Assembly: GCA_965116685.1 (NCBI GenBank)
Contig: OZ220707.1
Span: 787,655 to 851,654 of the forward strand
Length of the DNA: 64,000 nucleotides
Reading direction: 5' to 3'
Origin: Rhodothermales bacterium
GTDB taxonomy: Bacteria; Bacteroidota; Rhodothermia; Rhodothermales; Bin80
The position numbers and the translations under genes are program-made. Under the pieces are notes generated by a model. The model was not told the DNA's origin, searched no databases, and saw only the letters and a program-made list of their open reading frames with translations. Of the stretch, positions 8,307-28,869 are shown one piece after another (position 1 is the first letter of the stretch; each line of letters opens with the position of its first letter).

Positions 8307-8674
8307 GGGGATGATCAGGCTTCGACGGATTGCATCGCGCAACAAGCTGCGTGTCGAGTCAATCTGGCTTGGACTCGTAAAAATCACGTCAGAAAACCTG
8401 TAACTGCGAACGATTATTCGTACGCGATGGCGGCATAAACCCGCTATCTGTCTTCTATGCATACCCGCTCACAGGTGGTATAGAAGGCATCGCCAAGTGT
8501 GAGCACCCTATCCGGATTCCGGCTGGATCCCGATAGCGGTACCGATCAGCCTTTGCTGACACCCGGCTTTGGTCGCACGCCAAGGGTAGATGCAAGATAT
8601 TAAGGTGTGACCTACACACGTAGACGCTTGTCTGTCCGACCTTTCGGACCCGGGTTCGATTCCCGGCATCTCCA
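8307..8674 (+). ncRNA. ssrA: tmRNA (SsrA)
   Basis: The 5' GGGGATGATCAGGCTTCGACGG pairs with the 3' CATCTCC plus discriminator A, with a G3:U pair as in tRNA-Ala. A T-arm GGGTTCGATTCCCGG is present. An internal tag frame GCG AAC GAT TAT TCG TAC GCG ATG GCG GCA TAA (8406-8438) encodes ANDYSYAMAA. The 3' CCA is not encoded (genomic CAA). Confidence 0.9.
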
Positions 8675-8678
8675 CAAC

Positions 8679-20730: not shown

Positions 20731-21510
20731 ATGGCCCAACTGACCAATGTATTGTTCGTCACAGGAGAAATTGACCCATTTGCTAATGAAAGTGACATTG
20801 GAATATTAACGCGCTATTTACCCAAGGGGCTGAGTGAAGATGGTTCTTTTGCAACCAGGATTATGATGCCGCGCTATGGGACGATCAGTGAGCGGAAAAA
20901 TCGACTACACCAAGTGATTCGCCTCTGCGGTACAAAGGTGAGTATGGGCAGCCAGACAGAAACACTTGCCGTCAAGGTCGCAGCAATTCCCGGAACACGG
21001 TGCCAAGTCTACTTCATGGACAGCAAGCGCTTTTTTAAACGAAAAGGTTTGCACCAGGATAATTTGGGGAATACGTTTGACGATAATTCGGCACGTGCAC
21101 TCTTTTTTGCGCGCTCAACTCTGGAAACCGTGCGCAAGTTACAATGGAAACCCGATGTCGTCCATGCGTTCGGCTGGATCAGTGGCTTTTTGCCCTTACT
21201 CTTGGCGACGGAATACAAGAATGATGAATTATTTGAATCCGTTAAAACAGTAGTCTTTACTCCAGATCGTATTGAGGCGGATGCGGTCATTTCCAATGAC
21301 CTCATTAAGAATATGAAGCTTTCACTCAATGGGGATATTTCTGGAATGAGTCTGTCTGATCTGGGTGCCAAATTTTCGGATATTGTCGCGTACCCTCCCT
21401 CTCTGACCCCAGACTCTGAAACATCGGTACATTTCAGTACCGATACGCAGGAAATGATTTTGCAAGCCACGGATCTCTATCAAATGGCATGCAGTGCCGA
21501 ACCCGCCTGA
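20731..21510 (+). CDS. Short glycogen/starch-synthase-like protein (N-terminal catalytic-domain half only)
   Basis: MAQLTNVLFVTGEIDPFANESDIG...MPRYG matches the Glyco_transf_5 starch-synthase N-terminus. It is only about 260 aa, as in the short Bacteroidota form. The ORF opens at a GTG at 20689. Confidence 0.75.
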   Translation: MAQLTNVLFVTGEIDPFANESDIGILTRYLPKGLSEDGSFATRIMMPRYGTISERKNRLHQVIRLCGTKVSMGSQTETLAVKVAAIPGTRCQVYFMDSKRFFKRKGLHQDNLGNTFDDNSARALFFARSTLETVRKLQWKPDVVHAFGWISGFLPLLLATEYKNDELFESVKTVVFTPDRIEADAVISNDLIKNMKLSLNGDISGMSLSDLGAKFSDIVAYPPSLTPDSETSVHFSTDTQEMILQATDLYQMACSAEPA

Positions 21511-21630
21511 CCGGGAACATCAAGCCTGTCTTTGAGGGTATCTTCCCGTTGGCCGTGCTTTAGAGTGCCAATATCGTCGATTCCTCGTTCTTGGGCCACT
21601 ATCTTGCCCATCTCGATCATTTTATGCGTT
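21469..21630 (+). repeat. Left copy of a 162-bp imperfect direct repeat bounding the accessory island
   Basis: It aligns colinearly with 27599..27760 at an exact offset of 6130 bp. I count roughly 17-20 differences by eye, including two compensating 1-nt indels. It covers the last ~42 nt of the glycogen-synthase-like CDS, the intergenic region and ATGCGTT. Confidence 0.9.
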
Positions 21631-21863
21631 TAATGGCACCCCGGCGAAAGACCATACCTCTCCGCAACAAAAAAGGCGAAATTATCAACTTGGATCATCA
21701 CAATAATCATGATAAGACTCTTGAAATGCCACTTGATGTGGAGAACATCCTAAACCATTCTCCGGTTCTATGAACAGGTACCGCAGGATAGAATATCAAT
21801 ACAGGCGGCAAGGGAGTTTTTTGCGTTTATGTATTTTACGCAAAGTATGGAAATGAGGGCAAT

Positions 21864-23450
21864 ATGACGCAGAAAAAGAAGAAATCATCTAGAAAAAAAG
21901 CCGCATCTGAGGCAAACAGTGCTACCGTCGGATACGAAGCCGAGCTCTGGGATATGGCCAACGCGCTCCGGGGAAGTATGGACGCGGCCGAATACAAGCA
22001 CGTCGTTTTGGGACTCATATTTCTCAAGTACATATCCGATGCATTTGAGGAAAAACGGCGGGAGCTCGAAACACAGATATCCGAGGGAACGGATCCAAAT
22101 GACCCCGATGAATACCGTGCGGAAAACATATTCTGGGTGCCTCCTGAAGCCCGCTGGCAGGATATAAAGGCACAGGCAAGGCAGCCTACTATTGGGAAAC
22201 TCGTCGATGATGCCATGATGGGGATCGAGCGAGTGAACAGAGAGCTTAAGAGTGTCCTGCCAAAAAACTATGCCCGCCCAGCGCTGAATAAACAAAGACT
22301 TGGCCAGGTAATTGATCTTATAAGCAACATAAATGTCGGCGACAGAAATGCACGGTCAAAAGATGTTCTGGGGAGGGTCTACGAATATTTTCTCTCGCAA
22401 TTTGCAAATGCCGAAGGCAAGAAAGGGGGAGAGTTCTACACCCCCCGCTGTGTAGTGAAACTGCTGATGGAGATGCTTGAACCCTACGGGGGACGAGTTT
22501 ATGACCCATGCTGCGGCTCTTCAGGCATGTTTGTACAATCCATTGAATTCGCTGCAGCGCACGCGGGAGGAAGTGTCAGGGGAAGATCGAAGCTTCCTAA
22601 AGGCGTCAGACCTAATATTTCAATCTACGGACAGGAATCAAATTATACGACTTGGTGTCTCGCAAAAATGAATTTGGCCATTCGCGGCATTGAAGGCCAG
22701 ATTGCCCACGGAGACACTTTTCTCGATGATCGATTCCCCGATCTTAAGGCCAACTTCATTCTCGCTAATCCACCGTTCAACGTAAGTGACTGGGGAGGAG
22801 AAAGGCTTAGGGAAGACAAGCGCTGGAAATACGGCATTCCACCCAAGGGAAATGCGAATTTCGCGTGGGTGCAGCACATGGTTCACCACTTAGCACCCGG
22901 CGGTACGGCGGGTTTCGTGCTCGCAAACGGCTCTATGTCTTCTTCCCAGAATGCCGAGAGCGAAATCAGGAAAAACCTTGTAGAGGCGGGCATAGTCGAC
23001 TGCATCGTGGCACTTCCAGGACAGCTTTTCTATTCAACGCAGATTCCTGCGTGTCTCTGGTTTCTCTCGCGCCGGAAAGGAGAGAAAATTCTTTTTATTG
23101 ACGCGCGTATGCTCGGCCGCATGGTTGATCGCACACACAGGGAACTTACATATGAGGAAATCTGCCGCGTAGCCGAAACGTATCGTGCGTGGAGAGTCGA
23201 GAAAAATACTGGAGAATACAAAGATGTCTTGGGGCTTTGCAAAAGCGTGGATCTGGATGAGGTGCGGCGCCATGGCTATGTTCTCACTCCGGGGCGCTAC
23301 GTGGAAGCAGAGATCGAAAAAAATGACGACGAGTTATTTGAAGACAAGATGAAGCGTCTTACCTTAAAACTCCGCAAGCAGCGGGAAGAGGCAGTCAAGC
23401 TTGACGCAGCCATAACCTCCAATCTTAAAAAACTGGGATATGATACCTGA
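21864..23450 (+). CDS. hsdM: Type I restriction-modification system, DNA methyltransferase subunit M
   Basis: The HsdM N-terminal domain is [34 protein letters not shown]. The AdoMet motif is [12 protein letters not shown] and the catalytic motif is NPPFN. Confidence 0.95.
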
Positions 23451-23498
23451 TGACACAAATTTTATGTATTGTATATCGGAGGATACAATCGTAACACA

Positions 23499-23921
23499 AT
23501 GAAACTTGATGTTAGTTCACTCGAACGCGCAGTGGGGGAAATGGGAGATTTTCTGGAGAAATTTAGAGGATATGAAGCCTCCGACGACGTTCTGTTTTTT
23601 CGGATGCTCCAAGCAGGCGTTATTAAAGCATTTGAATTCACCTACGAACTGTCCGTCCGCTTCATCCGGCGACAATTGTCCCAAACATCTTTTAACATAG
23701 CTAATGTTGATGCCTTGGATTTTCGCAACATGATGCGGGTTGCGGCGGATGCAGGGCTGATCGCCGAACCCAAAAACTGGTTTAAGTACCGAGAGAAGCG
23801 CAACATCACAAGTCATACCTATGACGAGTATAAGGCTCAGGAAGTTCTTGCTATTGCAGGTGATTTCTTGGAAGATGCCCGTTTCCTGCTTGCCGAACTT
23901 ACGAGAAGAAATGCTCCATGA
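23499..23921 (+). CDS. HEPN-domain nucleotidyltransferase substrate-binding protein (HI0074/HepT-like)
   Basis: AGVIKAFEFTYELSVRFIRRQL and the Rx4-6H HEPN motif RNITSHTYDE are present. Its stop overlaps the next start (ATGA at 23918-23921). The ORF track opens at a TTG at 23469. Confidence 0.8.
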   Translation: MKLDVSSLERAVGEMGDFLEKFRGYEASDDVLFFRMLQAGVIKAFEFTYELSVRFIRRQLSQTSFNIANVDALDFRNMMRVAADAGLIAEPKNWFKYREKRNITSHTYDEYKAQEVLAIAGDFLEDARFLLAELTRRNAP

Positions 23922-25453
23922 ACGCACGCATTGACATCTCGCCGGACGATCTGGAAACCGTCCAGGAAATTCTTGTCAATCATGTTCCCGAGCTTGAAGT
24001 CCGGGCCTTTGGGTCTCGTGTTACTTGGACAGCGAGGCAATACTCGGACCTTGATTTGGTATTAATGACGGCAGACCCGCTCGATATCTCGCGTCTTGCC
24101 GACCTGTGCGAGACCTTTTCGCAATCCGATCTGCCATTTCAAGTAGATATAGTGGACTGGGCTTCCACTTCTGAGAGTTTTCGGGAGATAATCAAAAAAG
24201 AATGTGTGGTTGTTCAGGATAAACCTGAAGACAAGAATAATAATTGGCCAATCATAAAACTAGATTATTGTGCCACACTCAGTGGCCAGACAATCTTGCC
24301 GTCTAACGCAATAGATTTACCGTATATAGGCCTAGAACATATTGAAAAAGGCCAGCTGCATCTTACAGGACATGGGAAAGCGAGCAGTGTTTCTAGCGTG
24401 AAAACACATTTTCACTACAACGATATCCTTTTCGGAAAACTGCGTCCATATTTCCGAAAAATCATCATGGCCCCTTTTGAAGGAATCTGCTCAACCGATA
24501 TCTGGGTTATCAGATCGAAGGAACATGTAGACCAGTTATTCCTTTTCTATTGTCTAGCTTCTCAAGCCTTTGTAAATTTCGCAACCCGTTCATCCGAGGG
24601 TACACGAATGCCAAGAGCAAAATGGGATTATGTTTCTCAATACGAAATTCAGCTTCCCCCGCTCCCCGAACAACGCACCATCGCTCACATCCTCGGCATG
24701 TTGGACGACAAGATAGAACTGAACAGGCAGATGAACAAAACACTGGAGGCGACGGTACGGGCGCTGTTCAAGTCCTGGTTCATCGATTTCGAACCGGTCC
24801 GGGCAAAGATGGAAGGTTGGGATACGGGCTTCCCGCATGACATCGCCGACCTGTTTCCTGACCGGCTGGTGGATTCCGAGATGGGAGAGATTCCAGAAGG
24901 GTGGGAGGTAAAGTTGCTGAAGGACTGTATGAACCTAACTATGGGGCAGTCACCACCGGGTAACACCTACAACAACCACGGAGACGGCTTGCCCTTCTTC
25001 CAAGGCCGAGCGGAGTTTGGTTTCCGCTATCCTGAGAAACGAAGATTCTGTTTCGCACCGACTCGCGTTGCGGATCCAGAGGATACGCTGGTCAGCGTCC
25101 GGGCGCCCGTCGGGGACATCAACTTGGCTTGGGAACGGTGTTGTATCGGACGGAGCTTAGCAGCACTGAGACACAAGTCGGGCTCAAACTCATTCACTTA
25201 CCATTCAGCTTGGGCCTTGCGGCGAGAATTTGAGCAATACGAGCAAACGGGAACCGTGTTCGGTGCAATCAACAAAGGTCAGTTTGAAGTCTTAAAGGTG
25301 GTGGAGCCCGACGCTCGCGTTATTGAAGCGTTTGACACTATAGCCGTAAACCTGGACGCGCGGATCAGATCGAACGTTAGTGAATCTCACGCCCTCGCCA
25401 CACTTCGCGACACGCTGCTTCCCGAGCTTCTTTCTGGAGAAGTTCGACTCTAA
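23918..25453 (+). CDS. hsdS: Fusion ORF: minimal nucleotidyltransferase (MNT/MntA-like, ~100 aa) joined in frame to a complete Type I specificity subunit HsdS (two target-recognition domains, TRDs)
   Basis: The N-terminus AFGSRVTWTARQYSDLDLVLM...FQVDIVDW is the GSx..DxD MNT signature. From about residue 105 there is a full HsdS, with TRD1, the central conserved region LPPLPEQRTIAHILGMLDDKIELNRQMNKTLE, TRD2, and the C-terminal conserved region LRDTLLPELLSGEVRL. No stop codon separates the two parts. Confidence 0.85.
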   Translation: MNARIDISPDDLETVQEILVNHVPELEVRAFGSRVTWTARQYSDLDLVLMTADPLDISRLADLCETFSQSDLPFQVDIVDWASTSESFREIIKKECVVVQDKPEDKNNNWPIIKLDYCATLSGQTILPSNAIDLPYIGLEHIEKGQLHLTGHGKASSVSSVKTHFHYNDILFGKLRPYFRKIIMAPFEGICSTDIWVIRSKEHVDQLFLFYCLASQAFVNFATRSSEGTRMPRAKWDYVSQYEIQLPPLPEQRTIAHILGMLDDKIELNRQMNKTLEATVRALFKSWFIDFEPVRAKMEGWDTGFPHDIADLFPDRLVDSEMGEIPEGWEVKLLKDCMNLTMGQSPPGNTYNNHGDGLPFFQGRAEFGFRYPEKRRFCFAPTRVADPEDTLVSVRAPVGDINLAWERCCIGRSLAALRHKSGSNSFTYHSAWALRREFEQYEQTGTVFGAINKGQFEVLKVVEPDARVIEAFDTIAVNLDARIRSNVSESHALATLRDTLLPELLSGEVRL

Positions 25454-25458
25454 GATCC

Positions 25459-25710
25459 CGAATCGTTCGCTCCCGACACCTCTTCCGATGCAAAGAGAAC
25501 TCCAAGATGAGCGAGGCAGAGATGTTTGAACGACATTTTGACGGCATCTGCAATGCTCTTTGTCATGGACAGTCCAACGCCAAAGCATGCAACGGCAAAA
25601 TCCAGGAGGTCAAAACCATCGGTAGAGGATGCAGAACGTTTGAAAACTTTCGAGTTGCGATCCTTTTCTTCTGCGGAGGACTAGACCTCTATCCACAACA
25701 TTCGGGGTAG
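25459..25710 (+). pseudogene. C-terminal remnant of an ISL3-family transposase
   Basis: The frame reads ...HFDGICNALCHGQSNAKACNGKIQEVKTIGRGCRTFENFRVAILFFCGGLDLYPQ. This matches the conserved ISL3/IS1001-type C-terminus (sN...EG.N.KIk.iKr.a.GfRn.enF...i.f..GgLdLyP). Only about 60-80 codons are present and the catalytic domain is missing. Confidence 0.6.
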
Positions 25711-25754
25711 AACCAAATATTTTGAAGGAAATTGGAGTCTGTAGTGATAAGCCC

Positions 25755-26888
25755 ATGCCCCACATAAAGCATTTTTCCGTTCGCGGCTTCAAGTCAATTC
25801 GTGAGCTCGAAAATTTCGAATTGAAACCTCTGAATGTGCTGATCGGTGCCAACGGAGCCGGTAAAAGCAACCTTCTGAGTCTGTTTAAAATGCTCTCCGC
25901 CCTTTCGCAGAAGCGTCTTCAGCTTTTTGCCAAAAACGAGGGTGGCCCGAATGCATTGCTGTTCGGCGGACGAAAACTAACTTCAAAGCTTGAAATAGCC
26001 CTGTCATTTGAAAACAACCACTACGAATACGCGTTTTCACTCGAACCGACAACTGACTCAGTAGCCTTTTCCGGCGAGAAGCTCTTCCCAGGAGTCGCTG
26101 GAGATTTCAGCGCTGAAGATTTCAACACTGGCGGTTTCAAAACAGAGGCCGGTGCCTCAGTATGGCCCGGCGGATATAGCGAATCATGCGTGGCGGATAT
26201 TAAGTATGGGGAATTTGCATCTTATTTTTTGCCCAATATGAGACGCTGGCGCGTGTTTCACTTTCAGGACATGAGCGATACGGCTCACGTGCGAAATCAG
26301 TCGAAGGTACGCGACAACCTTCGACTAAGACCGGACGCTGGGAATCTTGCACCTTTTCTGCGCAATCTCCGTGAACATCATCCTGACCACTATCAAAGAA
26401 TCATAAATGTAGTCCGCCTCTCGGTTCCGTTTTTCGGAGACTTCGTCTACCGCAAGAATCTGGGCGACAGCATGGATCTTGAATGGTTTGAGGAATGGGG
26501 AGACTCGGACACACCGTTTGGTCCCCGACAGCTCTCAGGCGGTACGTTGCGTTTCATCTGTCTTGCTACTCTGTTAAATCAGCCGGAAAACCTCCAGCCG
26601 AACCTCATTCTCATTGACGAACCCGAGCTGGGGTTGCATCCATTTGCACTGACGCTACTGGCCGAAATGATCCAGCAGGCAGCCGACTTGCGACAGATTA
26701 TTGTCTCAACGCAATCCGCGGAACTTATAAGTCATTTTGAACCCGAAGATATCGTGGTCGTCGATCGCAAGAACGATGAATCCGTCTTTAAAAGGCTGGA
26801 CTCAGAATACCTTGCCGACTGGCTTGAAGATTACACGCTCGACGAGCTCTGGAAAATGAACGTGCTTGGTGGCAGACCCCGACCATGA
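25755..26888 (+). CDS. ABC/SMC-like AAA ATPase (AAA_21/AAA_15-type)
   Basis: Walker A LIGANGAGKSNL, ABC signature QLSGGTLRF, Walker B LILIDEPELGLHP. The H-loop position reads STQS. The ORF opens at a TTG at 25722, but the ATG at 25755 (MPHIKHFSVRGFKSI) is preferred. Confidence 0.85.
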   Translation: MPHIKHFSVRGFKSIRELENFELKPLNVLIGANGAGKSNLLSLFKMLSALSQKRLQLFAKNEGGPNALLFGGRKLTSKLEIALSFENNHYEYAFSLEPTTDSVAFSGEKLFPGVAGDFSAEDFNTGGFKTEAGASVWPGGYSESCVADIKYGEFASYFLPNMRRWRVFHFQDMSDTAHVRNQSKVRDNLRLRPDAGNLAPFLRNLREHHPDHYQRIINVVRLSVPFFGDFVYRKNLGDSMDLEWFEEWGDSDTPFGPRQLSGGTLRFICLATLLNQPENLQPNLILIDEPELGLHPFALTLLAEMIQQAADLRQIIVSTQSAELISHFEPEDIVVVDRKNDESVFKRLDSEYLADWLEDYTLDELWKMNVLGGRPRP

Positions 26889-27454
26889 AGACGGTCATTA
26901 TTGCCTGCGAAGGAGGAACTGAAGAAGCTTTTGTGAACAAATTTCTCTGTCATAAGCTCTGGCCAAAAGGAGTGTTTGCAGAACCACGCCTCATCCCGAC
27001 TTCGCGTCGTGAAAAAGGCGGTGCACTTAGCGGACAACGCGTACTCCGCTACCTTCGAAATACCCTTCGGGAACGGCAAAACACCTATGTCACGACATTT
27101 TTCGATCTGTTTTCCCTGCCGAAGAACTTCCCTGGGCTTGAGGACATCTCCGAGACGACGAACCCACTTAAACGCGCGACAGAAATCGAGACTGTATTTC
27201 GTGATGCCGTTATACGCGAAGCAAGATGTCGGCGCGAACGCTTTTTTCCTCACATTCAGCCCTATGAATTCGAAGCTCTGCTGTTTTCGGACACGACCGG
27301 TTTTGTGAAGGTGGAACCCGAATGGAAGGCATTTGCCGGGAAACTCGCGAGCATACGCGAAAATTTTGAAAGTCCTGAGTACATAAACGACGGAACCAAT
27401 ACGCATCCCTCAGCGCGACTTCAGAATCTTCGGTATTGTTTCAACTCAGAATGA
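26885..27454 (+). CDS. DUF4276-like protein (possible Toprim-like effector), possibly C-terminally truncated
   Basis: There is an ATGA overlap with the ATPase gene. The motifs IIACEGGTEEAFV, IQPYEFEALLFS and PEYINDGTNTHPSARL match my recollection of the DUF4276 family pattern. The protein stops shortly after the PS.RL motif, where family members usually continue for about 30-40 more residues. Confidence 0.65.
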   Translation: MKTVIIACEGGTEEAFVNKFLCHKLWPKGVFAEPRLIPTSRREKGGALSGQRVLRYLRNTLRERQNTYVTTFFDLFSLPKNFPGLEDISETTNPLKRATEIETVFRDAVIREARCRRERFFPHIQPYEFEALLFSDTTGFVKVEPEWKAFAGKLASIRENFESPEYINDGTNTHPSARLQNLRYCFNSE

Positions 27455-27464
27455 AACAATACCG
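27431..27464. terminator. Perfect 13-bp stem hairpin overlapping the DUF4276-like stop codon
   Basis: The sequence is cggtattgtttca actcagaa tgaaacaataccg. The stop TGA (27452-27454) lies inside the 3' arm. Confidence 0.5.
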
Positions 27465-27598
27465 CTTTCGAGCGTGCACATTACGTAGTACCGGGCGGTC
27501 ACCACCAAAGTAGGCGTCCTCCTGTAAAGGGCTCGAGTATACAATCAGCGGTAGATCGTGATGAGCACAGAACCGCCTCATGCCTTCAGTGATACAGA

Positions 27599-27760
27599 AC
27601 GGATCTCTATCAAATGGCATGCAGTGCTGAACCCGCCTGACTGGGAACATCGAGCATGTTTCGAGGGTACGCCTTTGTTGGTCGTGCTTTAGAATACCAA
27701 TATCGTCGGCTTCCTCGTTCTTGGGCTATTGTCTTGCCCATCTCGGTCATTTTATGCGTT
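27599..27760 (+). repeat. Right copy of the 162-bp imperfect direct repeat bounding the accessory island
   Basis: See the left copy. It contains a pseudo 3' end of the glycogen-synthase-like gene (TDLYQMACSAEPA-stop, one silent change) plus the functional upstream region and start codon of the next core gene. Confidence 0.9.
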
Positions 27761-28869
27761 CAATTCTTTTTTTCTTTCTACTGACTGCCCCACTGGTGAT
27801 GGTCTCCTGCTCGGATGCCGTCTCCGATGTCGGCTTGGACCTCCTGGGGAGCGAAGTAAATCTTCAGACAAAAACGGTGCGGGTCACCTCATTTTCAGCA
27901 TCTGAACTGGTTGATATCACGGGATCTGCACCCCGTGTGCTCGTGGGATCTGTTAACGATCCTCTGACTGGACAGATTGCAACCCATGGCTTTCTTGACT
28001 TTGCCGGCGATTTTTCTGGAGCCCCATCGGATAACATTAGTCGTGTCCAACTAAAACTTTCCCGTAATTATAATTTTGGAGATACCCTGGCGACGGTTCA
28101 ATTTGAGATCCATCAAATTCTCCAGGAATGGAATCATACCGGACGCCGATCCAATACCAGCCTAGACGTCGGTCCTGCTATTATGACCGTAACCACTGAG
28201 GATATGCTGACGATTGTGGATCTGCCGGACTCATGGATTAGTGAGAATGAAGATGTACTTCGGAGCGATGACTTTGAGACGGAATTTCACGGATTCGCCC
28301 TGATCGAAAATGGCAGTGGCCAGGTGATTGGCTTTACCTCTACCACGACCGTTTTGGAGGTAACCTCATCCGGCGGATTGACTACCTACAACGTAAGCAG
28401 TACCCATACACAGATTGAGCGTTCGCGCCCTTCTGACACACCAAGTGGATTTTTACTGTTCCAGGATGGCGCAGGACCTGCAATTGAGCTTAACTTTGCA
28501 TTTGATGAATTTGAGAACCAACCCATTAATGGCGTGGAGTTGATCTTCCGCGTGGATACCACTGCTAGTCAGGTCGCTCCAGAGAACTTTGTCCGCCCTC
28601 TTCCACGTGTCCTACAATTGGTTGCCGTTCCTATAGACGATACCGATCCTGCCGCCCTGGTTGGACAGGCGACGATCAATGATGGAAATTATCGCTTCTC
28701 GGAACGCGATGTTAGTGTCTTTTTCCAGCGTGTATTTTTTGGGTCACAGCAGTATAGCCGTCTGGAATTACGCGCTCCTATTGTAAATCATTCCCTGAAC
28801 GCTGTGCTGTTTTACGGTGCAGATGCCCAGGATTTATCTCCCCGGGCAACTATTATTTTGTCTCCATGA
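27754..28869 (+). CDS. Lipoprotein, possibly DUF4270 family
   Basis: It has a signal peptide and lipobox MRSILFFFLLTAPLVMVSC. Its position immediately downstream of the short glycogen-synthase gene is where a DUF4270 gene sits in many Bacteroidota. The family call rests on context rather than motifs. Confidence 0.55.
   Translation: MRSILFFFLLTAPLVMVSCSDAVSDVGLDLLGSEVNLQTKTVRVTSFSASELVDITGSAPRVLVGSVNDPLTGQIATHGFLDFAGDFSGAPSDNISRVQLKLSRNYNFGDTLATVQFEIHQILQEWNHTGRRSNTSLDVGPAIMTVTTEDMLTIVDLPDSWISENEDVLRSDDFETEFHGFALIENGSGQVIGFTSTTTVLEVTSSGGLTTYNVSSTHTQIERSRPSDTPSGFLLFQDGAGPAIELNFAFDEFENQPINGVELIFRVDTTASQVAPENFVRPLPRVLQLVAVPIDDTDPAALVGQATINDGNYRFSERDVSVFFQRVFFGSQQYSRLELRAPIVNHSLNAVLFYGADAQDLSPRATIILSP

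What the first reader, a model, noticed from the sequence alone, without database searches (positions are those of the whole stretch)
21469..27760. 6.1 kb accessory island bracketed by diverged 162-bp direct repeats that duplicate a whole core intergenic region
**Seen in sequence.**
- 21469-21630 and 27599-27760 align end to end at a constant 6130-bp offset. I estimate roughly 85-90% identity by eye.
- Each copy contains the last ~14 codons and stop of the glycogen-synthase-like gene. In the right copy the only difference in this part is a silent GCC to GCT change.
- Each copy also contains the complete intergenic region and the first 7 nt (ATGCGTT) of the next core gene.
- Everything between the copies is accessory: hsdM, HEPN, MNT-hsdS, an ISL3 remnant and the ATPase/DUF4276 pair.

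**Inference.**
- The two repeat copies are not identical, so this is not a simple target duplication made at insertion. It looks more like an attL/attR pair in which one copy came in with the element from a related genome, or a recombination hot spot where cassettes are swapped by homologous exchange.
- No integrase or recombinase is present, so the island is probably immobilised or was acquired by homologous recombination.
Basis: partly seen in the sequence, partly recalled or inferred. Interest (0 to 1): 0.7.

Follow-up and report, generated by a model that had tools for sequence, protein, structure and literature searches.

The report
Old restriction-modification island with duplicated insertion site
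A decayed phage-defence gene cluster sits between two housekeeping genes and is bracketed by two diverged copies of its 166-base insertion site, a pattern already described for restriction-modification genes, so this is a clear but ordinary new example.

Summary
Window 21469-21634 and 27599-27764 are a two-copy direct repeat of 166 nt with 87% identity (blastn E=3e-52). Each copy holds the last 13 codons and stop of the glgA-like gene, the whole intergenic region, and the first 11 nt of the DUF4270-like gene.

The cargo is a degraded type I restriction-modification (R-M) island:
- hsdM, HEPN, and an MNT::HsdS fusion;
- an ISL3 transposase remnant;
- the HEC-01 ATPase/DUF4276 pair.

hsdR and the 3' end of HEC-01B were lost in a 3.5-kb deletion.

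Related Rhodothermales assemblies carry fuller versions of the same island (11-17.5 kb, with hsdR) at the same site. They share end sequences with the window. None has an integrase. Other relatives, including strains of the same species as island carriers, have empty sites with one copy.

The redundant half of each copy decays. The left-copy intergenic part evolves at about the neutral rate, while the right copy and the empty sites stay conserved. Age and unequal constraint therefore explain the divergence, with no need for a foreign att site.

Presence/absence looks driven by homologous recombination. This matches the known "insertion with long target duplication" of R-M systems (Furuta et al. 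2010). It is a new member of a known kind, of low to moderate interest.

The parts
20731..21510 (+). Left core gene: short glgA-like glycogen/starch synthase with only the N-terminal GT5 domain. The ORF is open from TTG 20689, but homologues are called at 259 aa.
   Evidence: Pfam PF08323, E=1e-34. Homologues are 259 aa. The gene is syntenic in all 14 genome loci.
21469..21634 (+). Left repeat copy. It holds the functional last 13 codons plus stop of glgA (21469-21510), then a redundant, decaying copy of the intergenic region and of the first 11 nt of the DUF4270-like gene.
   Evidence: The intergenic part has 15 changes private to the left copy, against 4 private to the right copy. Left copies of different lineages are only 58-69% identical to each other.
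21635..21863 (+). Left end of the island, the non-coding region upstream of hsdM. I infer that it carries the operon's promoter.
   Evidence: Homologous in L002 throughout, in L003 up to window 21787, and in L031.
21864..23450 (+). hsdM, the type I methyltransferase subunit. It is full length.
   Evidence: Pfam N6_Mtase E=4e-103 plus HsdM_N. PADLOC MTase_I E=1e-201. 90% amino-acid identity to the L002 copy.
23469..23921 (+). HEPN-type protein (NTase_sub_bind), the presumed toxin half of a HEPN/MNT pair embedded in the operon.
   Evidence: Pfam PF08780, E=5e-28. Its stop overlaps the next gene's start by 4 nt.
23918..25453 (+). In-frame fusion of an MNT nucleotidyltransferase (about aa 13-101) to a full-length HsdS specificity subunit (about aa 87-511).
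   Evidence: Pfam Polbeta E=2e-9 and Methylase_S E=4e-20. PADLOC Specificity_I matches aa 87-511 to profile positions 7-446 of 458. The same fusion is called in L023 (646 aa) and L031 (630 aa). The target-recognition-domain regions differ from L002.
25507..25710 (+). Remnant encoding the C-terminal 67 aa of an ISL3-family transposase. It lies in the slot that holds variable cargo in relatives.
   Evidence: Pfam DDE_Tnp_ISL3, profile positions 190-240 of 240, E=5e-8. No counterpart at this position in the other islands. Homology to them resumes at 25714-25725.
25722..26888 (+). HEC-01A, an ABC-type ATPase (AAA_21) of a candidate defence pair.
   Evidence: PADLOC HEC-01A E=6e-129. Pfam AAA_21 E=1e-27. 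91% DNA identity to L021.
26885..27454 (+). HEC-01B, a DUF4276 (TOPRIM-like) protein. It is truncated: the last ~48 residues are replaced by 7.
   Evidence: PADLOC HEC-01B E=1e-52. Alignment with the 230-aa and 226-aa versions in L021 and L023.
27430..27465 (.). Scar of a ~3.5-kb deletion that removed the 3' end of HEC-01B, all of hsdR and about 250 bp downstream of it. It contains a perfect palindrome with a 12-bp stem and 8-nt loop at 27432-27463.
   Evidence: Window 25725-27429 matches L021 4473-6192, and window 27466-27899 matches L021 9712-10146. tblastn finds no HsdR anywhere in the window. The palindrome is unique in the window and absent from the 143 loci fetched by then.
27466..27598 (+). 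Right end of the island: non-coding sequence that lies downstream of hsdR in relatives.
   Evidence: 94% identical to L021 9712-9844. From window 27521 rightward, the stretch through the right copy is 84% identical to L023. L016 aligns with L023 and L021 through this region, apart from a secondary 174-bp deletion.
27599..27764 (+). Right repeat copy. It holds a redundant pseudo 3' end of glgA (27599-27640), then the functional intergenic/upstream region and the start of the DUF4270-like gene.
   Evidence: Identity to other copies: 96% to L021's right copy, 91% to the L015/L028 empty site, 88% to the L001 empty site.
27754..28869 (+). Right core gene, DUF4270-like (371 aa).
   Evidence: Weak Pfam DUF4270 hit. 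36 homologues. The gene directly follows glgA at the empty sites.

Best explanation
The segment is a degraded copy of an old type I restriction-modification (R-M) operon with other defence genes embedded in it. The operon was inserted once, without any recombinase of its own, between the glgA-like gene and the DUF4270-like gene in an ancestor of this Rhodothermales species group.

**The duplication (shown).** The insertion duplicated about 166 bp of the target. As a result both neighbouring genes stayed intact:
- the left copy supplies the end of glgA;
- the right copy supplies the upstream region and start of the DUF4270-like gene.

**Divergence of the copies (shown).** Since then the half of each copy that is not needed has decayed, and the needed half has been conserved. 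This asymmetry, plus some gene conversion between the copies, gives the 87% identity seen today.

**Gain and loss (inferred).** The island is now polymorphic.
- It is lost by recombination between the two copies, or by replacement with an empty allele.
- It moves between strains by homologous recombination in the flanking core genes.

**State of the window's copy (shown).** One 3.5-kb deletion removed hsdR and the tail of HEC-01B. An ISL3 insertion with an adjacent deletion emptied the variable slot. What remains is a methyltransferase (M plus S), a HEPN/MNT pair and a damaged HEC-01 pair.

**Not resolved.** How the original long duplication was made, whether by staggered breaks with fill-in or by single-crossover integration of a circle carrying a captured target segment.
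For: **One island at one site, in many assemblies**
- L002+L021, L027+L023, L031/L032 and L016/L018 carry hsdM-HEPN-MNT::hsdS-(variable)-HEC-01A-HEC-01B-hsdR between the same two genes. L017 shows the right part of the island, from HEC-01A to the right copy. Both repeat copies are seen wherever both junctions were fetched.
- The left-end sequence (window 21635-21787) and the right-end sequence (27466-27598) are shared.
- The shorter right copy in L016 is a secondary 174-bp deletion across the junction.
- No version has an integrase.

**Unequal constraint on the two copies**
- Left copies are 58-69% identical to each other in the intergenic part. The exception is window against L002, at 94%.
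- Right copies and empty sites are 86-95% identical.
- Fourfold-site identity of flanking core genes is 73-74% to those same genomes and 85.5% to L002.
- Against the consensus of six other right/empty copies, the window's left copy has 15 private changes and the right copy has 4.

**Empty sites within island-bearing species**
- L028 has the identical GlgA protein to L027. Its left flank is 98-100% identical per 100-nt step over the last 2.8 kb, right up to the glgA stop.
- Its right flank is 92-98% identical for about 3.5 kb, then 99-100%.
- L146 is 98.4-99.0% identical to L002/L021 in both flanks. Its single copy is left-type at position 54 and carries L021R-specific variants from position 61 onward.

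**Gene conversion**
- Three derived states (positions 33, 56, 107) are shared by the left and right copies in the window/L002 group only.

**Foreign origin of the cargo**
- The island's tetranucleotide distance is 0.216, against 0.128 +/- 0.019 for 93 other segments of the same size. None of them reaches it. GC content is unremarkable.

**Precedent**
- Furuta et al. 2010 (PMC2853133) list R-M systems of types I-IV flanked by direct repeats of 24-423 bp. Left-right identity there goes as low as 83/96.
- Those cases have empty sites, no mobility genes, and repeats that often span a start or stop codon.
Against: - The original insertion event is not observed, and its mechanism is unknown even in the literature.
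- The left-by-right deletion reading of the L146 empty site rests on one informative site (position 54). That state is also the ancestral one, so gain of the island by recombination with a crossover inside the right copy is not excluded.
- The left copy of the window/L002 group is better preserved (82% to the right copy in the intergenic part) than left copies elsewhere (65-69%). This needs gene conversion, or a younger re-duplication, as an extra assumption.
- The pseudo-glgA part of the right copies (positions 19-42) is more conserved than neutral. I explain this only by assuming it overlaps upstream control sequence of the DUF4270-like gene.
- I could find no strain of the window's own species.
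Confidence: 0.7

Rival explanations
1. The repeats are attL and attR of a site-specific integrative element that targets the 3' end of glgA and carries a replacement gene end. The integrase was lost, or acts in trans, as with cis-mobilisable elements derived from integrative conjugative elements.
For: - The repeat starts inside the 3' end of a gene, as with many integrase-driven islands.
- The first 29 nt of the two window copies are identical, which could hide a core site.
- The window's left copy is closer to L002's left copy (94.7%) than to any empty site (83-86%).
Against: - The fuller island versions seen in other lineages have no integrase, and the ends are too short to hold one.
- The intergenic part of the left copy decays at about the neutral rate, differently in each lineage.
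- L003's left copy is native-like yet abuts the same island end.
- Right copies in L016, L017 and L022 lack part of the putative core.
- Identity of the first 29 nt is already explained by coding constraint on glgA in the left copy.
Confidence: 0.08
2. The island is an integrase-free element that still moves. It repeatedly loops out as a circle by RecA recombination between the two copies. It then re-enters the same site in other cells by a single crossover with the one-copy site. This is the 'virus-like life cycle' that Kobayashi and colleagues proposed for repeat-flanked R-M units.
For: - Chimeric empty site in L146.
- Shared derived states in the left and right copies of the window/L002 group.
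- Presence/absence polymorphism within two species.
- The hypothesis is stated in PMC2853133.
Against: - No circular or tandemly amplified form was seen in any contig.
- The 3.5 kb of raised divergence in the right flank of L023 against L028 points to double-crossover exchange through flanking genes, not a single crossover in the repeat.
- Most left copies are too decayed (about 65% identity in the intergenic part) for efficient recombination.
Confidence: 0.12
3. The duplication is recent. The left copy looks diverged because it arrived from a ~13% divergent donor, together with the island, through a single homologous recombination event into the window's lineage.
For: - Both the island and the left copy resemble those of L002.
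- The island's tetranucleotide composition is atypical for the window.
Against: - Double-crossover import does not create a duplication. The duplication is already present in every island-bearing lineage.
- Window against L002 identity is about the same in the core flanks (93-94%) as in the two repeat copies (94.7% and 95.8%). So the island region shows no sign of a more recent transfer.
Confidence: 0.07
4. The second copy is an assembly artefact.
For: None, beyond the general risk in metagenome assemblies.
Against: - The copies differ at 22 of the 169 aligned columns.
- The same two-copy structure is present in independent assemblies from different samples and projects. One is a single 102-kb scaffold that spans the whole island.
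Confidence: 0.01

Closest known systems
Insertion of restriction-modification gene complexes with long target duplication (Nobusato et al. 2000, cited as ref. 37 in Furuta, Abe and Kobayashi 2010, Nucleic Acids Res 38:2428, PMC2853133)
   Same: - An R-M operon under 20 kb with no mobility gene of its own.
- Flanking direct repeats far longer than transposon target duplications.
- Both repeats align with a single copy at an empty site in related genomes.
- The repeat spans a stop codon and a start codon, so both neighbouring genes stay intact.
- The copies are imperfect. The published range goes as low as 83/96, about 86%.
- A published type I case in Haemophilus influenzae also has unrelated genes embedded in the operon.
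- One relative (the L003 genome) has a large rearrangement next to the R-M locus.
   Different: - The published cases are mostly Proteobacteria, especially Helicobacter, Campylobacter, Haemophilus and Neisseria. This one is in uncultured Rhodothermales.
- The insertion here is old enough to show what happens afterwards: unequal decay of the redundant halves, erosion of one boundary, gene conversion, loss of hsdR, and turnover of embedded cargo.
- The window's own copy no longer meets the published criterion of holding both R and M genes.
Defence genes embedded inside type I R-M, BREX, DISARM and Hma operons ('guilt by embedding', Payne et al., bioRxiv 10.1101/2024.01.29.577857). This includes HEC-01, and also the HEPN/MNT pairs often seen in type I operons (the latter from my own knowledge).
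   Same: - HEC-01A/B lies between hsdS and hsdR.
- HEPN/MNT lies between hsdM and hsdS.
- The slot between hsdS and HEC-01A holds different genes in different strains: SIR2_2, SLFN_AlbA_2/HATPase_c_4, and an unknown 276-aa protein.
   Different: - HEC-01 was defined from Hma systems and gave no protection in the published assays.
- Here MNT is fused in frame to HsdS.
- The HEC-01B of the window is truncated.
Cassette-like allelic variation at a fixed chromosomal restriction locus, for example the E. coli hsd 'immigration control region' mentioned in PMC2853133. Exchange there is by homologous recombination in conserved framework genes.
   Same: - A fixed site between conserved core genes.
- Strains of one species differ in presence and content.
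- Raised divergence in the adjacent flank marks recombination imports.
   Different: - Here the confirmed alleles are only 'empty' or derivatives of one island. L003 is a possible but unconfirmed exception.
- The site is marked by a long duplicated target, which the E. coli locus lacks as far as I know.
Integrase-driven genomic islands, and cis-mobilisable elements that insert in the 3' end of a gene and carry a surrogate gene end
   Same: - Direct repeats that begin inside the 3' end of a gene.
- The gene end is restored by the copy next to the gene.
   Different: - No integrase in any version seen.
- The repeat runs through the whole intergenic region into the next gene.
- The supposedly element-borne copy decays freely, and the repeat boundaries erode.

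Membership tests
R-M insertion with long target duplication (criteria of Furuta et al. 2010) | Direct repeats longer than 30 bp flank the inserted segment | tested here: met
   166 nt, 87% identical, E=3e-52.
R-M insertion with long target duplication (criteria of Furuta et al. 2010) | A related genome has an empty site whose single copy aligns with both repeats | tested here: met
   L001, L015/L028, L144, L145 and L146.
R-M insertion with long target duplication (criteria of Furuta et al. 2010) | The inserted segment contains both R and M gene homologues | tested here: not met
   The window has hsdM and hsdS but no hsdR anywhere. The criterion is met in the fuller copies of the same island in L021, L023, L016 and L031. 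The window's lack of hsdR is a secondary 3.5-kb deletion.
R-M insertion with long target duplication (criteria of Furuta et al. 2010) | Insert shorter than 20 kb | tested here: met
   5,964 bp between the copies in the window. About 12 kb in L027+L023 and about 17.5 kb in L002+L021.
R-M insertion with long target duplication (criteria of Furuta et al. 2010) | No integrase, transposase or phage genes that could account for the insertion | tested here: met
   No integrase in any version. L027+L023 has no mobility gene at all. The ISL3 remnant in the window and the IS4 in L002 are internal and lineage-specific.
R-M insertion with long target duplication (criteria of Furuta et al. 2010) | The repeat is not a multi-copy genomic repeat | tested here: inconclusive
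   Only two copies in the 64-kb window, and at most one or two per related locus. The rest of the genome was not available.
Integrase-mediated genomic island (attL/attR) | A tyrosine or serine recombinase gene lies inside the element, next to an att site | tested here: not met
   Pfam scans of all island ORFs in the window, and of ORFs in L002, L003 and L004. Precomputed Pfam lists for L016-L032.
Integrase-mediated genomic island (attL/attR) | A conserved core crossover site is present in both repeats of every copy | tested here: inconclusive
   Positions 1-29 are identical in the window, but that is glgA coding sequence. The right copies of L017, L016 and L022 start only at positions 13, 19 and 22.
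Integrase-mediated genomic island (attL/attR) | Excision to a circle with regeneration of attB | not testable with these tools
   This needs reads or PCR.
Type I restriction-modification system | HsdM, HsdS and HsdR are all present | tested here: not met
   HsdM and HsdS are present and full length. HsdR is absent from the window. At most, M plus S methyltransferase activity is possible (inferred).
HEC-01 candidate defence pair (PADLOC) | HEC-01A ABC ATPase next to a HEC-01B TOPRIM-like/DUF4276 protein | tested here: met
   HEC-01A E=6e-129, HEC-01B E=1e-52, overlapping genes. HEC-01B lacks its last ~48 residues. Defence activity has not been shown for this family.
HEPN/MNT toxin-antitoxin pair | Adjacent HEPN-fold and minimal nucleotidyltransferase genes | tested here: met
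   PF08780 E=5e-28 and PF18765 E=2e-9, with a 4-nt overlap. Toxin-antitoxin activity was not tested.

The most novel reading that the evidence does not exclude
The repeat-flanked R-M operon is a recombinase-free mobile unit that is still active. It loops out through its 166-bp repeats, may amplify, and re-enters the one-copy site of related cells by a single RecA crossover. This would give the first population-level support for the 'virus-like life cycle' proposed for R-M systems. The chimeric empty site in L146 and the shared derived states in the left and right copies would be footprints of such cycles.
Probability: 0.12. Interest if true: 0.6.

Novelty: new member of a known kind. Interest (0 to 1): 0.3.

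Why it matters
This finding does not change what is known. It adds a well-resolved example, from an uncultured Rhodothermales group, of R-M operons inserted with a long duplication of the target.

Many related assemblies are available, so the later history of such an insertion can be read directly:
- each copy keeps only the half that a neighbouring gene needs;
- the other halves decay at about the neutral rate;
- boundaries erode, and the copies occasionally convert each other;
- the island is lost and exchanged by homologous recombination;
- the operon serves as a docking place where other defence genes come and go.

The practical lesson for genome scans is that diverged long direct repeats around an island need not be att sites.

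Tried and rejected
1. **tRNA or known RNA in the repeat.** None found. The window holds only a tmRNA at 8307-8675.
2. **Promoter and terminator scans of both copies.** Nothing above shuffle expectation. The scan does not cover Bacteroidota-type promoters.
3. **Was the original duplication longer on the left?** The right copies of L016 and L022 looked as if they continued into glgA. Local alignments of the 120 nt upstream of five right copies against the glgA 3' region score no better than shuffles (p = 0.16-0.98). Rejected.
4. **Are the different right-copy boundaries independent insertions?** Rejected for L016. There the boundary is a 174-bp secondary deletion within otherwise collinear island sequence.
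5. **L003 and L004 as 'alternative cargo'.**
   - In L003 the locus is split. glgA and DUF4270 lie 1.09 Mb apart on opposite strands.
   - A simple inversion between the two identical IS4 copies does not fit their orientation.
   - L004 is a synteny break inside the intergenic region, followed by housekeeping genes.
6. **Search for the island elsewhere.**
   - hsdM relatives in JGI metagenomes and IMG/VR reach only 75% identity or less.
   - None has these flanks or HEC-01, and only 1 of 109 has HEPN/MNT.
7. **Strains of the window's own species.** Exact look-ups of its GlgA and DUF4270 proteins found nothing on record.
8. **GC content as a marker of foreign origin.** No contrast (0.491 against 0.500). 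Only the tetranucleotide profile stands out.
9. **Terminal inverted repeats at the island ends.** None found.

Full report

Yes.
- Window 21469-21634 and 27599-27764 align over their whole length: 166 nt each, 147 identities in 169 aligned columns (87%), three small indels.
- Similarity stops sharply at both ends.
- A blastn of the left copy against the whole window finds the right copy at E=3e-52 and nothing else better than a 14-mer. It is therefore a two-copy repeat, not a dispersed element.
- Positions 1-42 are the last 13 codons and the stop of the glgA-like gene. The only difference between the copies here is a silent GCC/GCT.
- Positions 43-155 are the complete intergenic region. Positions 156-166 are ATGCGTT(T/C)AAT of the next gene, whose true start is ATG 27754.
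- No tRNA or Rfam family lies in or near the repeat.

**2. What lies between the copies?**

Pfam and PADLOC give:
- hsdM (21864-23450);
- a HEPN-type NTase_sub_bind protein (23469-23921);
- an in-frame MNT::HsdS fusion (23918-25453);
- the last 67 codons of an ISL3 transposase (25507-25710);
- the HEC-01 pair, an ABC-type AAA_21 ATPase (25722-26888) and a DUF4276 protein (26885-27454).

There is no integrase. There is also no hsdR, here or anywhere else in the window. GC content equals that of the flanks (0.491 against 0.500). The tetranucleotide profile is the most deviant of 94 same-size segments of the window: 0.216 against 0.128 +/- 0.019. The cargo is therefore of foreign origin but not recent.

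**3. Relatives**

The glgA-like protein retrieves 14 loci from uncultured Rhodothermales genomes. Protein searches, cluster look-ups and contig look-ups added about 20 more loci from ENA, NCBI and Logan assemblies.

Three kinds of site appear.

(a) Empty sites, where glgA is followed about 115 bp later by DUF4270:
- all distant relatives that keep the synteny (L005-L010, L012-L014; 70-80% DNA identity to the window);
- also close relatives: L001, L015/L028, L144, L145 and L146 (87-94% identity).

(b) Occupied sites:
- L002+L021, one 579-kb contig: about 17.5 kb, hsdM-HEPN-MNT::hsdS(split)-two unknown genes-IS4-SIR2_2-HEC-01A-HEC-01B-hsdR.
- L027+L023, one 102-kb scaffold: DUF3644-hsdM-HEPN-MNT::hsdS-276 aa-HEC-01A-HEC-01B-hsdR.
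- L031/L032: a SLFN_AlbA_2/HATPase_c_4 gene in the slot.
- L016/L018: right part, with hsdR.
- L017: right part, HEC-01A followed by a UvrD-type helicase on the other strand.

(c) Rearranged sites:
- In the L003 genome, glgA with its left copy and 150 bp of island left end lies 1.09 Mb from DUF4270 with its right copy, on the opposite strand.
- L004 has a synteny break inside the intergenic region.

**4. One insertion event**
- Every occupied site seen at its left junction has a left copy, and every one seen at its right junction has a right copy.
- The left copies all end within a few bases of ATGCGTT.
- The island sequence that follows (window 21635-21787) is shared by the window, L002, L003 and L031.
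- The window's right-end sequence (27466-27598) is the sequence found downstream of hsdR in L021 (94%) and L023.
- L016 is collinear with L023 and L021 through hsdR and beyond, apart from a 174-bp deletion. That deletion removed the island's last ~160 bp and the first 18 nt of the right copy.
- The differing left limits of right copies (positions 1, 4, 13, 19, 22) are therefore most simply erosion, as shown directly for L016, not independent events.
- I found no evidence that the duplication was ever longer.

**5. Why the copies differ**

I split the repeat into its coding part (positions 1-42) and the rest.
- In the intergenic part, right copies and empty sites are 86-95% identical across the close lineages.
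- Left copies are only 58-69% identical to each other and 62-69% to the window's left copy. The exception is the closest relative, L002, at 94%.
- As a yardstick I used fourfold-degenerate sites of four flanking core genes. Their identity to the window is 85.5% for L002, 73-74% for L003, L027, L031, L028 and L001, and 49% for L005.
- The redundant intergenic half of the left copy thus evolves at about the neutral rate, and differently in each lineage. The same sequence in the right copy, where it precedes a live gene, is conserved.
- Measured against the consensus of six other right/empty copies, the window's left copy has 15 private changes and the right copy has 4.
No foreign att site is needed.
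- Three derived states (positions 33, 56, 107) are shared by left and right copies of the window, L002/L021 and L146 only. This points to some gene conversion between the copies in that group. It also fits its left copy being better preserved than the others.

**6. How the island comes and goes**

Two within-species comparisons are informative.

L027/L023 (occupied) against L028 (empty):
- They encode the identical GlgA protein.
- Over the last 2.8 kb of the left flank, identity per 100-nt step is 98-100% up to the glgA stop. It then drops to 63% in the left-copy intergenic part.
- The right flank is 92-98% identical for about 3.5 kb and 99-100% beyond.
- That tract of raised divergence is the mark of an allele imported by homologous recombination. 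It does not say which of the two strains received it.

L146 (empty) against L002/L021 (occupied):
- The flanks are 98.4% and 99.0% identical.
- Its single copy carries the left-type base at position 54. From position 61 onward it carries the variants specific to L021's right copy.
- This is the chimera expected from recombination between the two copies. It rests on one informative site, which is also the ancestral state, so gain with a crossover inside the right copy remains possible.

**7. State of the window's copy**
- Compared with L021, the window lacks L021 6193-9711: the last ~48 codons of HEC-01B, all of hsdR and about 250 bp beyond.
- In their place is a 36-bp filler (27430-27465) containing a perfect palindrome with a 12-bp stem.
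- The ISL3 remnant occupies the slot that holds SIR2_2, a SLFN_AlbA_2/HATPase_c_4 gene or a 276-aa gene in relatives. Homology to the other islands resumes at 25714-25725.
- What is left is a methyltransferase (M plus MNT::S), a HEPN/MNT pair and a damaged HEC-01 pair.
- Whether any of these is active is not known. It is only an inference that the HEPN/MNT pair could favour retention of the remnant.

**8. Comparison with what is known**

Furuta, Abe and Kobayashi (2010, PMC2853133), extending Nobusato et al. (2000), describe exactly this pattern as 'insertion with long target duplication':
- R-M systems of types I-IV;
- no mobility genes;
- direct repeats of 24-423 bp, with left-right identity down to 83/96;
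- empty sites in related genomes;
- repeats that often span a start or stop codon, so that the target genes survive.

They note that the mechanism is unknown, perhaps linked to DNA breakage. They also propose an untested cycle of insertion, amplification and release.

The present case meets their criteria, except that the window's copy has secondarily lost hsdR. Its relatives meet all of them.

Embedding of other defence genes in type I operons, and HEC-01 itself, are described by Payne et al. (bioRxiv 10.1101/2024.01.29.577857). HEC-01 gave no protection in their assays.

The integrase-island reading fails its defining test, because no recombinase is present in any version.

**9. Verdict**

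The preferred attL/attR interpretation is not supported.

It is a new member of a known kind. Its value is as an unusually well-documented example of what happens to a long target duplication over time. Interest is low to moderate (0.3). The most novel reading not excluded is that the unit still cycles in and out through its repeats by RecA alone. I give that about 0.12.

Noticed in passing
window 23918-25453; also L023 1153-3093, L031 13283-15175, L002 13215-14363: The MNT nucleotidyltransferase of the embedded HEPN/MNT pair is fused in frame to a full-length HsdS specificity subunit. This holds in several lineages (511, 646 and 630 aa; split in L002). The HEPN stop overlaps the fusion's start by 4 nt. 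Among 109 loci with HsdM relatives from other environments, only one had HEPN/MNT at all. I did not check whether such fusions are described.
   Followed up: partly
window 27432-27463: A perfect palindrome, GGTATTGTTTCA-ACTCAGAA-TGAAACAATACC, sits exactly at the junction of the 3.5-kb deletion that removed hsdR. It is unique in the window and absent from the 143 loci fetched by then. Its origin is unknown. It could be a repair filler or the remnant of an element end.
   Followed up: partly
L021 409-4173; L031 15255-17009; L023 3090-3920; L027 10938-11927; L017 893-2851: The type I operon acts as a docking place for other genes, and these differ between strains. Between hsdS and HEC-01A: SIR2_2 (1254 aa), SLFN_AlbA_2/HATPase_c_4 (584 aa), or an unknown 276-aa protein. 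Between the left copy and hsdM: DUF3644. In place of HEC-01B and hsdR: a UvrD-type helicase on the opposite strand.
   Followed up: partly
L003 (OZ244823.1 about 1.786 Mb) and L022 (same chromosome, about 2.872 Mb): In this genome the locus is split. glgA with its left copy, and DUF4270 with its right copy, lie 1.09 Mb apart on opposite strands. Identical (99.95%) 2151-bp IS4-family copies lie 7.3 kb and 2.7 kb from the two junctions. Their relative orientation does not fit a simple inversion between them. A type III-like methylase/helicase pair lies upstream of the IS on the DUF4270 side.
   Followed up: partly
L023 9850-13350 against L028 10742-14240: Within one species, the DUF4270-like gene and the next two genes (424 aa unknown, 423 aa TPR) are 92-98% identical, while the surrounding genes are 99-100% identical. 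The tract could be a recombination import or a fast-evolving gene block. The DUF4270-like protein is also much less conserved between species than GlgA (89% against 96%).
   Followed up: partly
window 21624-21776: The duplicated start codon in the left copy opens a 50-codon reading frame that runs into the island's left end. It is probably not a gene, since the left-copy promoter region decays freely. I did not test whether it is conserved.
   Followed up: no
window 24162-24668 and 24906-25453: The two target-recognition-domain regions of hsdS have no DNA similarity to those of L002, although hsdM and the central hsdS segment are 79-87% identical. This suggests that the recognition specificity has been swapped between close relatives.
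   Followed up: no
window 8307-8675: tmRNA gene with tag peptide ANDYSYAMAA. It is unrelated to the finding.
   Followed up: no
L004 10864 onward: In this more distant relative (79% identity), synteny ends inside the glgA-DUF4270 intergenic region. Housekeeping genes follow: cobalamin adenosyltransferase, an M23 peptidase, thymidylate kinase. Together with the L003 split, this makes a second rearrangement breakpoint at this short locus.
   Followed up: partly
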